The notes beneath the pieces are model-generated. The model was given only the letters and a program-made list of their open reading frames with translations. It was not told where the DNA came from and ran no database searches. A program made the position numbers and the translations under genes. Of a DNA stretch of 64,000 nt, positions 20,450 through 63,559 are shown in pieces. Source of the stretch: the human T2T-CHM13v2.0 reference genome, Homo sapiens; the NCBI RefSeq assembly GCF_009914755.1, contig NC_060925.1. The stretch is one strand, 5' to 3'. Position 1 is the stretch's first letter. Every line of letters begins with the position of its first letter.

Positions 20450-20544
20450 CATTTTGGTCTGCTGGTAGATTTCACCATAGGGGCCATCCCATCTCTATAG
20501 AGACTCTTGGTTTTACTGAAGTTAACAATGTTGAAAATGACCCT
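20450..20544 (-). CDS. AGBL4: Internal 95-nt coding exon of AGBL4 / cytosolic carboxypeptidase 6 (probably exon 4); phase 0 in, phase 2 out
   Basis: Minus strand: polypyrimidine cttctccctctttctttttcag|AGGGTCATT...CCAAAATG|gtaagt, canonical acceptor and consensus donor. Translation RVIFNIVNFSKTKSLYRDGMAPMVKSTSRPK(W) matches the CCP6 N-terminal region as I recall it. Not listed in the ORF track. Confidence 0.95.
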
Positions 20545-56936: not shown

Positions 56937-57433
56937 GGAAGAATGAACTGCAGGTCTGCTTTTGTGTTGCTCTAAAGTCCATGCTTTTTTGTTTTACACT
57001 ATGATAACTCAAATGAAGAGATTTTGTCATTTCTCTTCAATGAGGCTCTTTGTCTCAAAAAAAGGAGTAGGGGTATGGTACTATTCAAAAGACACTACAG
57101 AGATGGTTAGATGATGGGTAGGTGGACTGATTATACTATGTAAAACAACTTAAAATGCTCTTAAAACAATGGAGAACTAACAAAATATTAAGAAAGTAGG
57201 GGGAGGACCCAAGATGGCCGAATAGGAACAGCTCCGGTCTACAGCTCCCAGCGTGAGCGACGCAGAAGACAGGTGATTTCTGCATTTCCATCTGAGGTAT
57301 CGGGTTCATCTCACTAGGGAGTGCCAGACAGTGGGCGCAGGTCAGTAGGTGCTCGCACCGTGCGCGAGCCAAAGCAGGGCGAGGCATTGCCTCACTTGGG
57401 AAGCGCAAGGGGTCAGGGAGTTCCCTTTACGAG

Positions 57434-57649
57434 TCAAAGAAAGGGGTGACAGACGCACCTGGAAAATCGGGTCACTCCCACCCGAATATTGCGCTTTTCG
57501 GACGGGCTTAAAAAACGGCGCACCAAGAGATTATATCCCGCACCTGGCTTGGAGGGTCCTAGGCCCATGGAGTCTCGCTGACTGCTAGCACAGCAGTCTG
57601 AGATCCAACTGCAAGGCGGCAGCGAGGCTGGGGGAGGGGCGCCCGCCAT
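57434..57649 (-). CDS. Intact L1 ORF0 (71 aa) downstream of the antisense promoter
   Basis: MAGAPPPASLPPCS...RFSRCVCHPFL*, 216 nt, the C-terminal part of ORF-track 57434-57718; both ORF0 donors CAG|GTGCG intact; expression not shown. Confidence 0.7.
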   Translation of the reverse strand: MAGAPPPASLPPCSWISDCCASSQRDSMGLGPSKPGAGYNLLVRRFLSPSEKRNIRVGVTRFSRCVCHPFL

Positions 57650-58104
57650 TGCCCAGGCTTGCTTAGGTAAACAAACCAGCTGGGAAGCTGGAACTGGGTG
57701 GTGCCCACCACAGCTCAAGAAGGCCTGCCTGCCTCTGTAGGCTCCACCTCTGGGGGCAGGGCACAGACAAACAAAAAGACAGCACTAACCTCTGCAGACT
57801 TAAATGTCCCTGTCTGACAGCTTTGAAGAGAGCAGTGGTTCTCCCAGCACGCAGCTGGAGATCTGAGAACGGGCAGACTGCCTCCTCAAGTGGGTCCCTG
57901 ACCCCTGACCCCCGAGCAGCCTAACTGGGAGGCACCCCCAAGCAGGGGCACACTGACACCTCACACGGCAGGGTATTCCAACAGACTCGCAGCTGAGGGT
58001 CCTATCTGTTAGAAGGAAAACTAACAAACAGAAAGGACATCCACACCAAAAACCCATCTGTACATCACCATCATCAAAGACCAAAAGTAGATAAAACTGC
58101 AAAG

Positions 58105-59122
58105 ATGGGGAAAAAACAGAACAGAAAAACGAAACTCTAAAACGCAGAGCGTCTCTCCTCCTCCAAAGGAACGCAGTTCCTCACCAGCAACGGAACAAAG
58201 CTGGATGGAGAATGACTTTGACGAGCTGAGAGAGGAAGGCTTCAGACGATCAAATTACTCTGAGCTACAGAAGGAAATTCAAACCAAAGGCAAATAAGTT
58301 GAAAACTTTGAAAAAAATTTAGAAGAATGTATAACTAGAATAACCAATACAGAGAAGTGCTTAAAGGAGCTGATGGAGCTGAAAACCAAGGCTCAAGAAC
58401 TACGTGAAGAATGCAGAAGCCTCAGGAGCCGATGCGATCAACTGGAAGAAAGGGTATCAGCAATGGAAGATGAAATGAATGAAATGAAGCGAGAAGGGAA
58501 GTTTAGAGAAAAAAGAATAAAAAGAAATGAGCAAAGCCTCCAAGAAATATGGGACTATGTGAAAAGACCAAATCTACGTCTGATTGGTGTACCTGAAAGT
58601 GACGGGGAGAATGGAACCAAGTTGGAAAACACTCTGCAGGATATTATCCAGGAGAACTTCCCCAATCTAGCAAGGCAGGCCAACGTTCAGATTCAGGAAA
58701 TACAGAGAATGCCACAAAGATACTCCTCGAGAAGAGCAACTCCAAGACACATAATTGTCAGATTCACCAAAGTTGAAATGAAGGAAAAAATGTTAAGGGA
58801 AGCCAGAGAGAAAGGTCGGGTTACCCTCAAAGGGAAGCCCATCAGACTAACAGCAGCGGATCTCTCGGCAGAAACCCTACAAGCCAGAAGAGAGTGGGGG
58901 CCAATATTCAACATTCTTAAAGAAAATAATTTTCAATCCAGAATTTCATATCCAGCCAAACTAAGCTTCATAAGTGAAGGAGAAATAAAATACTTTACAG
59001 ACAAGCAAATGCTGAGAGATTTTGTCACCACCAGGCCTTCCCTAAAAGAGCTCCTGAAGGAAGCGCTAAACAGGGAAAGGAACAACCGGTACCAGCCACT
59101 GCAAAATCATGCCAAAATGTAA
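58105..59122 (+). pseudogene. L1 ORF1, disrupted near the N-terminus
   Basis: ATG 58105; small deletion at ~58130; TAA at ~58295; residual 249-aa ORF 58373-59122 with a 3-nt insertion (LTAADL). Confidence 0.9.
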
Positions 59123-59185
59123 AGACCATCGAGACTAGGAAGAAACTGCATCAACTAACGAGCAAAATCACCAGCTAACTTCATA

Positions 59186-62850
<3,665 letters not shown>

Positions 62851-63559
62851 ACAATGAGATCACATGGACACAGGAAGGGGAATATCACACTCTGGGGACT
62901 GTGGTGGGGTGGGGGGAGGGGGGAGGGATAGCATTGGGAGATATACCTAATGCTTGATGACGAGTTAGTGGGTGCAGCACACCAGCATGGCACATGTATA
63001 CATATGTAACTAACCTGCACAATGTGCACATGTACCCTAAAATTTAAAGTATAATAAAAAAAAAAAAGAAAGAAAGTACCAGGCCAAAATTTAAGTTAAT
63101 TCTAGATCCAACAGAGAGCATTTGCTGAATCTGGTGAATCTAAGCTTGGCAAAATAGGGATTGGTTTTCAGGGATGTCAAGGCCATTGCGAATTTTAAAA
63201 ATCATAGAAAAGTGAGACCAAAATTCTGTGCAATTTTCCTTCAATTCACTTGCAAAATTCTAAGCTGCTCATATACATGGTGAAATGCTAATAAAACAAG
63301 TAGAAAGTGGTACCTATGAGGTTAAAATGCTAAGTGGAGCTTTCAACAGTCTCAAAGTGCTGCAGAAAGACAGTTTGGAGTTCAAGGCCTACCAAGTTGG
63401 AAAATTGTGGTAAATACCCAATACTGTTTGAGATGCCAAGGGACTGTGCACTTGAGATGAAGGGCTATGCCCTTGGAGTAAGGGCAAGCCAAACATATAC
63501 CTGAATTGATATATTTGAAATTCAACCTCGACTGGATAAACATGATCTTCTCAAATGCT

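What the first reader, a model, noticed from the sequence alone, without database searches (positions are those of the whole stretch)
57434..57649. Intact ORF0 on the AGBL4 strand; donor 2 predicts an in-frame ORF0-CCP6 fusion if the 95-nt exon is skipped
Seen: complete 71-aa ORF0 with donor 1 after nt 106 (57544|57543, phase 1) and donor 2 after nt 191 (57459|57458, phase 2). Joined to the phase-0 exon at 20544 both are out of frame (tails EGHFQHC* and RGSFSTLLTSVKPRVSIEMGWPLW*). That exon ends in phase 2, so the next AGBL4 exon (outside the window) starts in phase 2 and donor 2 would join it in frame. Known: ORF0 forms fusions with downstream host exons, and the CCP6 catalytic domain lies C-terminal to this exon. 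Inference: a lineage-restricted ORF0(1-64)-carboxypeptidase chimera is possible.
Basis: partly seen in the sequence, partly recalled or inferred. Interest (0 to 1): 0.7.

Follow-up and report, generated by a model that had tools for sequence, protein, structure and literature searches.

The report
Ordinary L1 ORF0 copy inside AGBL4
This is one of thousands of intact copies of the small antisense gene ORF0 carried by a dead LINE-1 element in an AGBL4 intron; it could join the carboxypeptidase reading frame only by skipping a well-defined exon, and nothing shows that this happens.

Summary
A 71-aa ORF0 lies at 57434-57649 (-). It has GT donors after nt 106 (phase 1) and nt 191 (phase 2). Both donors run into stops when joined to the AGBL4 exon at 20544. 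I located the next AGBL4 exon outside the window (217 nt, about 200 kb further on), and donor 2 does join it in frame.

The feature itself is ordinary. The host is a full-length, TSD-flanked L1 of L1PA2/young-L1PA3 type with broken ORF1 and ORF2. The donor-2 27-mer occurs 2,811 times in this genome at up to 2 mismatches. Of 33 close relatives, 24 have an intact ORF0, 33 keep donor 1 and 32 keep donor 2.

The frame match carries no signal, because two donors in phases 1 and 2 fit any exon that does not start in phase 0. The fusion would need an active antisense promoter, skipping of an exon with a 20/20 pyrimidine tract and a GTAAGT donor, and a 237-kb splice. Its product would lack about 60% of the CCP N-domain.

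No L1-AGBL4 chimera from this element appears in the catalogues I could read. One loose hint exists: AGBL4 rises about 6-fold in DNMT1-knockout neural progenitors, where young L1s become promoters.

Verdict: known kind, low interest.

The parts
57199..63069 (+). Full-length L1 (L1PA2 / young L1PA3 type), antisense to AGBL4, including a 12-A tail at 63056-63067
   Evidence: The 5' end GGGGGAGGACCCAAGATGG starts at 57199 and the poly(A) is at the 3' end. The 906-nt 5'UTR is 95-96% identical over its full length to 39 other copies. Pfam finds L1 ORF1, endonuclease and RT domains.
57190..57198 (.). 5' target-site duplication AAGAAAGTA
   Evidence: An identical 9-mer lies at 63070-63078 directly after the poly(A).
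63070..63078 (.). 3' target-site duplication AAGAAAGTA
57434..57649 (-). ORF0, 71 codons plus stop, intact (L1 positions 236-451)
   Evidence: It is 83-90% aa identical to 149 other scored genomic copies. It has no Pfam family.
57542..57544 (-). ORF0 splice donor 1 (CAG|GTGCGG); last exon base 57544, phase 1
   Evidence: GT is kept in 33 of 33 related copies.
57457..57459 (-). ORF0 splice donor 2 (CAG|GTGCGT); last exon base 57459, phase 2
   Evidence: GT is kept in 32 of 33 related copies. The surrounding 27-mer occurs 2,811 times in the genome at up to 2 mismatches, against 0 for the control.
57598..57798 (-). Presumed antisense-promoter region (L1 positions 400-600); activity not shown
   Evidence: The position is taken from the literature: antisense starts fall within the first 600 bp of the 5'UTR (PMC4908685). 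It is 188-195 of 201 identical to 33 relatives, with 7 private changes. An ACCACA core lies at L1 position 509.
58105..59122 (+). ORF1, broken (first stop after 11 codons; the longest piece is 249 aa at 58373-59122)
59186..62850 (+). ORF2, broken into pieces of 63, 397 and 681 aa
20450..20544 (-). AGBL4 95-nt coding exon (phase 0 start, phase 2 end). It encodes the middle of the CCP N-domain. It is the nearest annotated acceptor, 36,914 nt downstream of donor 2.
   Evidence: It aligns to AGBL3 N-domain residues (14/28 identical, E 4e-07) and weakly to CCP5 residues 90-113 (E 0.067).

Best explanation
This is an ordinary fixed copy of the primate L1 antisense gene ORF0. It sits in the 5'UTR of a full-length but coding-dead L1 of L1PA2/young-L1PA3 type, which inserted antisense into an AGBL4 intron.

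Shown here: the ORF, its start context and both donors are intact, as in most close relatives.

Inferred: the element is normally methylated and silent. If its antisense promoter fires, as in early embryo, germ line, tumours or demethylated cells, three products are expected.
(a) An unspliced or L1-internal transcript that gives the free 71-aa ORF0 peptide.
(b) Chimeras from donor 1 or 2 to the first good acceptor. That acceptor is a cryptic intronic exon or the 95-nt AGBL4 exon, and both donors are out of frame with the latter. They give peptides of 42 and 87 aa that end inside that exon, on mRNAs that should be targets of nonsense-mediated decay.
(c) At most trace amounts of the in-frame donor-2 product that skips the exon.

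The in-frame ORF0(1-64)-CCP6 product is a bookkeeping possibility, not a signal in the sequence.
For: Identity and ordinariness:
- 8,770 first-look candidates; all 150 scored copies match, and 148 have no stop.
- 5,793 first-look candidates for the 5'UTR; 39 other full-length copies at 95-96% identity.
- of 33 relatives, 24 have an intact ORF0, 33 keep GT at donor 1 and 32 keep it at donor 2.
- the donor-2 27-mer occurs 2,811 times at up to 2 mismatches and 850 times with a CpG-decay-tolerant pattern; the controls give 0.

The L1 is dead: ORF1 and ORF2 are in pieces.

Frames: both donors hit stops in the 95-nt exon, and only donor 2 with the next exon stays open. The start phases of the next three exons are 0, 2 and 0, so one of three fits a donor.

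Exon definition: the 95-nt exon has 20/20 pyrimidines before its AG and a GTAAGT donor. The next exon has 16/20 and lies 236,929 nt from donor 2.

Literature:
- ORF0 is usually made as the short peptide, and 57 of about 3,200 genic loci showed fusions (PMC4908685 passages citing Denli 2015).
- That paper's Table S1 of 2,015 ESTs holds no AGBL4 exon chimera from this L1. Its only AGBL4 row is AGBL4-IT1, from an L1MDa.
- AGBL4 is absent from the table of L1-overlapping TSSs in PMC6639357.
Against: AGBL4 is among the genes activated in DNMT1-knockout human neural progenitors: log2FC 2.6, mean counts 2 to 77 (PMC6639357 supplementary file 4). In that system L1HS, L1PA2 and L1PA3 elements become alternative promoters (section 11).

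Among the 850 matches to the stricter donor-2 pattern, this is the only copy inside AGBL4 with ORF0 on the gene strand. So real promoter activity of this copy cannot be excluded.

The EST catalogue is shallow. I could not read Denli 2015 or its list of 57 fusions, nor the supplements of PMC12791003. No RNA-seq, CAGE or methylation data were available here. Of the 10 RefSeq AGBL4 transcripts, only one was shown to me.
Confidence: 0.87

Rival explanations
1. In some tissue the antisense promoter of this L1 fires, donor 2 is used, the 95-nt exon is skipped, and a hominid-restricted ORF0(1-64)-CCP6 chimera carrying the carboxypeptidase domain is made as a stable protein.
For: The frame is right. 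ORF0, its start context and donor 2 are intact. ORF0-exon fusions exist at other loci (PMC4859970 and PMC4908685 passages; PMC6639357 section 11). The M14 domain lies entirely downstream.
Against: It requires skipping a strongly defined constitutive exon and a 237-kb splice.

The product would begin at about residue 70 of the 109-residue N-domain stretch, as mapped on the AGBL3 paralogue. It would therefore lose about 60% of the fold that defines cytosolic carboxypeptidases. CCP6 consists almost solely of the N-domain and the CP domain (PMC10210458 passage).

I found no transcript evidence. The prior for any fusion at a genic ORF0 locus is about 57 in 3,200.
Confidence: 0.03
2. The L1 acts as a methylation-gated alternative promoter for the 3' part of AGBL4 without making a fusion protein. 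Antisense-promoter transcripts splice from donor 1 or 2 into the 95-nt exon. ORF0 then behaves as an out-of-frame upstream ORF. The RNA is either degraded or translated at low level from an internal AUG, and this accounts for part of the AGBL4 rise in demethylated cells.
For: - AGBL4 rises by log2FC 2.6 in DNMT1-knockout progenitors, where genes within 50 kb of activated L1HS/PA2/PA3 go up. The 95-nt exon is 37 kb from this L1.
- This is the only gene-strand copy in AGBL4 among the 850 strict pattern matches.
- 92% of L1 antisense chimeras are sense to the host gene and start downstream of its TSS (PMC4908685).
- The donor-1 frame stops 21 nt into the exon, upstream of two in-frame CCP6 ATG codons.
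Against: No junction reads were seen. AGBL4 is not in that paper's L1-TSS table. This copy's 5'UTR carries more private changes (2.9%) than any of 29 relatives (maximum 1.9%), and 7 of them lie in the promoter region. The upregulation could equally come from the gene's own promoter or be indirect.
Confidence: 0.2
3. The donors work not in promoter-driven transcripts but in AGBL4 pre-mRNA. Antisense L1 sequence is exonised, with a cryptic acceptor upstream and donor 1 or 2 as the exon end, which gives a poison exon or premature termination of AGBL4 mRNA.
For: Intronic antisense L1s contain cryptic splice sites and can be retained in gene transcripts (PMC4908685 passage citing Kaer 2011). Both donors match the consensus at 7-8 of 9 positions.
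Against: I did not examine candidate acceptors, and no transcript evidence was available. The L1 is fixed and AGBL4 is functional, so any such use must be minor.
Confidence: 0.05

Closest known systems
L1 ORF0 (Denli et al. 2015, Cell 163:583). I did not read this paper; I know it here only through passages in PMC4908685, PMC4859970, PMC7746726 and PMC6639357.
   Same: It lies on the antisense strand of a primate L1 5'UTR, is 71 aa long, has a strong start context and carries two internal splice donors. It shows high identity to thousands of other copies.
   Different: Nothing structural differs. This copy has 8 private nucleotide changes in the ORF and is 83-90% identical in protein to the other copies. 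Its expression is unknown.
L1 antisense-promoter chimeric transcripts / ORF0-exon fusions (Speek 2001; Criscione 2016, PMC4908685; Jonsson 2019, PMC6639357)
   Same: The geometry matches: a young L1 antisense in an intron, with ORF0 and donors pointing at downstream coding exons of a neuronal gene.
   Different: The catalogued cases have observed junction reads or ESTs. Here none was found, and the nearest exon is out of frame with both donors.
AGBL4-IT1, an L1MDa-initiated EST transcript in the same gene (Criscione Table S1)
   Same: It is an L1-antisense-initiated transcript on the AGBL4 strand within an AGBL4 intron.
   Different: It comes from a different and much older L1 family at window 148900 onward, and it has no ORF0.

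Membership tests
L1 ORF0 | Lies antisense in the 5'UTR of an L1PA1-8 element, at about L1 positions 236-452 | tested here: met
   The L1 starts at 57199, and ORF0 occupies L1 positions 236-451 on the minus strand. The reference position is recalled.
L1 ORF0 | Uninterrupted frame of about 70-71 aa starting at an ATG in a strong context | tested here: met
   71 aa with context GGGCAATGG.
L1 ORF0 | Two internal splice donors | tested here: met
   CAG|GTGCGG at nt 106 and CAG|GTGCGT at nt 191. The same sites carry GT in 33 and 32 of 33 relatives. 'Two splice donor sites' is stated in PMC4859970.
L1 ORF0 | Sequence homology to other ORF0 copies | tested here: met
   149 other scored copies at 83-90% aa identity, with E of 1.2e-35 or better.
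L1 ORF0 | Transcribed from the antisense promoter and translated | not testable with these tools
   No expression data were available. Only sequence integrity of the promoter region was checked.
ORF0-host exon fusion protein | ORF0 upstream of host coding exons and on the same strand | tested here: met
   ORF0 and AGBL4 are both on the minus strand. Exons lie 36.9 kb and 236.9 kb downstream.
ORF0-host exon fusion protein | A donor in frame with the exon it would normally splice to (the nearest downstream acceptor) | tested here: not met
   Both donors give stops within the 95-nt exon.
ORF0-host exon fusion protein | Observed chimeric junction (EST, RNA-seq or peptide) | tested here: not met
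   There is none in Criscione Table S1 or in the Jonsson L1-TSS table. No paper holds AGBL4 together with ORF0 or L1PA2. Denli's own list was not readable, so this test is incomplete.
Retrotransposition-competent L1 | Intact ORF1 and ORF2 | tested here: not met
   The ORF1 frame stops after 11 codons. ORF2 is in at least 3 pieces.
Cytosolic carboxypeptidase (M14D), applied to the hypothetical fusion | Complete N-domain (PF18027) preceding the M14 domain | tested here: not met
   The fusion would start at the position equivalent to AGBL3 probe residue 70, whereas the N-domain spans probe residues 3-109. The upstream N-domain exon at C1:49575979-49576110 (weak) and the 95-nt exon would both be lost.

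The most novel reading that the evidence does not exclude
This particular L1 is the methylation-gated promoter behind the AGBL4 rise in demethylated human neural progenitors. Through minor skipping of the 95-nt exon it also yields a hominid-specific ORF0(1-64)-CCP6 chimera that keeps the catalytic domain but swaps most of the N-domain, which in CCP5 binds CP110, for the ORF0 peptide. That would retarget a tubulin deglutamylase.
Probability: 0.03. Interest if true: 0.5.

Novelty: already known. Interest (0 to 1): 0.13.

Why it matters
As it stands it matters little. It is one of thousands of ORF0 copies, and the frame match is what chance gives.

It would matter modestly if this L1 proved to drive AGBL4 transcripts in hypomethylated neural or germ cells. 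That would add a tubulin-deglutamylase gene to the list of neuronal genes with L1 alternative promoters.

It would matter more if a truncated or chimeric CCP6 were actually made, because the N-domain is the partner-binding part in the sister enzyme CCP5.

The copy carries 26-27 private changes in its 5'UTR, depending on the comparison set. Its transcripts should therefore be uniquely mappable, which makes the question cheap to settle with existing data.

Tried and rejected
- Pfam on ORF0, the 95-nt exon and the next exon gave no family, because they are too short or have no model. I mapped the exons through the AGBL3 paralogue instead.
- Pfam searches of the whole genome found only weak, below-cut-off AGBL4 exon hits.
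- The PDB sequence search of the exon gave only a weak CCP5 match, E 0.067.
- I tried to fetch the whole 1.5-Mb AGBL4 span to count all L1 5'UTRs by strand and to phase every exon. The count of gene-strand copies therefore rests only on the 850 strict pattern matches.
- Denli 2015 is not held.
- The supplements of PMC12791003 are unreadable here. The one held supplement of PMC10619931 has no AGBL4.
- The search for AGBL4 + LINE-1 + antisense gave 2 papers, both about new L1 insertions. I read passages of one, PMC5932605, which concerns mouse Agbl4; the other I saw only in the listing. Neither is relevant.
- I did not fold or model the hypothetical fusion, because that would require handing in a joined sequence.
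- I rejected the idea that an intact ORF0 implies selection at this locus, since 24 of 33 relatives are intact too.

Full report
**What is there.**
Window 57199-63069 (+) is a full-length L1.
- It begins with GGGGGAGGACCCAAGATGG and ends in a 12-A tail.
- It is flanked by a perfect 9-bp target-site duplication, AAGAAAGTA, at 57190-57198 and 63070-63078.
- Pfam recognises the three L1 ORF1 domains in a 249-aa remnant. It also finds endonuclease and reverse-transcriptase domains in two ORF2 remnants.
- ORF1 read from its ATG at 58105 stops after 11 codons. ORF2 is split into pieces of 63, 397 and 681 aa. The element cannot move on its own.

**Age and subfamily.**
- The 906-nt 5'UTR aligns end to end at 95-96% identity with 39 other scored copies, out of 5,793 first-look candidates.
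- Against 29 of these, this copy has 23 private differences in 1,496 CpG-poor bases of ORF1 and early ORF2, which is 1.5% (relatives: median 1.1%, range 0.5-1.9%).
- It has 26 private differences in 905 bases of 5'UTR, which is 2.9% (relatives: median 1.2%, maximum 1.9%).
- The 3'UTR has the GAG-type diagnostic triplet and the 5'UTR is of the short form. Both of these diagnostics are recalled, not tested.
- Together these place it at L1PA2 or young L1PA3, roughly 8-13 million years old by the recalled L1 clock. It would therefore be shared among great apes rather than being human-specific. No other primate genome was available to check this.

**The observation.**
This corresponds to L1 positions 236-451.
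- Donor 1 (CAG|GTGCGG) ends the exon at 57544, after nt 106, phase 1.
- Donor 2 (CAG|GTGCGT) ends it at 57459, after nt 191, phase 2.
- The AGBL4 exon at 20450-20544 (-) is 95 nt and open only in frame 0.

**The exon outside the window.**
I used the large N-domain/M14 exon of the paralogue AGBL3 as a probe and searched the window's own genome. The search gave a hit at C1:48924361-48924525 (-). Reading that stretch shows a 217-nt exon at C1:48924313-48924529.
- Its acceptor is tttgtttatatattttag|G and its donor is GTG|gtaagg.
- The native join of the 95-nt exon to this exon reads ...RPKWQRLPPKNVYYYRC... without a stop.
- Donor 2 joined directly to it reads ...VTRFSRQRLPPKNVYYYRC... in frame through the whole exon. 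Donor 1 does not.

Residue 64 stays R, because the exon's first base is G.

**Why this is ordinary.**
- ORF0 is a repeat-family feature. The protein search found 8,770 first-look candidates, and all 150 scored copies matched over residues 1-71. Of these, 148 had no stop.
- The 27-mer around donor 2 occurs 2,811 times at up to 2 mismatches, and the reversed control occurs 0 times.
- Among 33 close relatives, 24 have an intact 71-aa ORF0, 33 keep GT at donor 1 and 32 keep GT at donor 2.
- Passages in PMC4908685 report, from Denli 2015, about 3,200 genic ORF0 loci, of which 57 showed fusion to a gene exon. They also say ORF0 is usually made as the short peptide.
- I could not read Denli 2015 itself.

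**Why the frame match carries no signal.**
With donors in phases 1 and 2, every downstream exon that does not start in phase 0 is in frame with one of them. Here the next three exons start in phases 0, 2 and 0. One fit in three is what chance gives.

**Why the in-frame route is unlikely.**
- The first annotated acceptor, 36,914 nt downstream, is very strong: 20 of 20 pyrimidines before the AG. The exon ends in a perfect GTAAGT donor.
- It belongs to the selected RefSeq transcript, and its length is not a multiple of three. Skipping it in normal AGBL4 mRNA would shift the frame.
- The in-frame acceptor has 16 of 20 pyrimidines and lies 236,929 nt from donor 2.
- The expected chimeras are therefore the out-of-frame ones. 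They encode 42- and 87-aa peptides that end in the 95-nt exon, far upstream of the last exon junction, so they should be substrates of nonsense-mediated decay (inference).

**What the fusion would be.**
On the AGBL3 probe, Pfam places the CCP N-domain at residues 3-109 and the M14 domain from residue 134.
- The 95-nt exon aligns to probe residues 36-63 (E 4e-07).
- The next exon aligns to residues 70-127 (E 3e-10).
- Another N-domain exon lies further upstream at C1:49575979-49576110 (weak).
- M14 exons lie far downstream, near C1:48.53-48.54 Mb.

CCP6 consists almost only of these two domains, and in CCP5 the N-domain mediates CP110 binding (PMC10210458 passages). A partial beta-sandwich is unlikely to fold (inference). 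I did not model the chimera.

**Evidence for expression.**
None is direct.
- Criscione's Table S1 (2,015 ESTs) contains one AGBL4-related row: AGBL4-IT1, initiated in an L1MDa. That is a different element, outside the window.
- No held paper contains AGBL4 together with ORF0 or with L1PA2.
- The one held supplement of PMC10619931 lacks AGBL4. The supplements of PMC12791003 could not be read.

There is one indirect hint. In PMC6639357, AGBL4 is in the table of genes activated by DNMT1 knockout in human neural progenitors, with log2FC 2.6 and counts from about 2 to about 77. That study shows L1HS, L1PA2 and L1PA3 becoming alternative promoters and raising genes within 50 kb. However, AGBL4 occurs only in file 4 of the 9 supplementary files searched, so it is not in the L1-TSS overlap table (file 5).

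Among the 850 genome matches to a CpG-decay-tolerant donor-2 pattern, two fall inside AGBL4: this copy on the gene strand, and one at C1:49,759,583 on the other strand.

**Promoter integrity.**
- The region equivalent to L1 positions 400-600 is 188-195 of 201 identical to the relatives and carries 7 private changes.
- An ACCACA core is present at L1 position 509, where I recall a RUNX3 site of the antisense promoter.
- The 5'UTR keeps 33 CpGs, against a median of 37 in relatives, with observed/expected 0.46.

This is compatible with a methylation-silenced promoter that could still be activated, but it proves nothing.

**Verdict.**
The feature is nonetheless a routine ORF0 copy, and the proposed chimera is an unsupported, low-probability by-product.
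- About 3%: a real, stable ORF0-CCP6 protein.
- About 20%: this L1 gives AGBL4-exon chimeras of any frame in demethylated cells.
- About 87%: the overall ordinary reading.

The matter can be settled cheaply with existing RNA-seq data, because the private variants of this copy make it uniquely mappable.

Noticed in passing
outside the window, window 148900-246784 (-): AGBL4-IT1 corresponds to a single germ-cell-tumour EST (AW071649). Criscione 2016 Table S1 lists it as initiated in the antisense strand of an L1MDa. So the annotated lncRNA is itself an L1-antisense-promoter transcript on the AGBL4 strand.
   Followed up: no
whole AGBL4 gene: AGBL4 is among the genes activated in DNMT1-knockout human neural progenitors, with log2FC 2.6 and padj 1e-21 (PMC6639357 supplementary file 4). 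Whether an intronic L1 drives this is unknown.
   Followed up: partly
window 57199-58104: This copy's 5'UTR has more private substitutions (2.9%) than any of 29 close relatives (maximum 1.9%). Its ORF1/early ORF2 region is within their range (1.5% against 0.5-1.9%). Part of the excess is probably CpG decay (33 CpGs against a median of 37). The relatives were picked for similarity to this copy, so they are biased toward little-changed copies.
   Followed up: partly
window 57199-57351: NCBI's repeat masking starts at 57352, so the first 153 bases of the L1, including its promoter start, are unmasked although they are clearly L1.
   Followed up: no
window 60500-60700 (+), within ORF2: The element is 5,871 bp, about 150-190 bp shorter than the roughly 6.0 kb I recall for full-length young L1s. 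The 397-aa ORF2 piece seems to lack about 50 residues just upstream of the reverse-transcriptase domain. This was not verified against other copies.
   Followed up: no
G000:C1:49759583-49759609 (+), window about 655583: A second exact copy of the donor-2 27-mer lies inside AGBL4 but on the opposite strand. It is an L1 in sense orientation whose ORF0 would be transcribed antisense to AGBL4.
   Followed up: no
window 57800-58057 (-) and 57136-57387 (-): Two further ATG-started open frames, of 85 and 83 aa, lie on the ORF0 strand. One is upstream of ORF0 inside the 5'UTR, and the other runs across the L1 5' boundary into the flank. They are probably chance frames.
   Followed up: no
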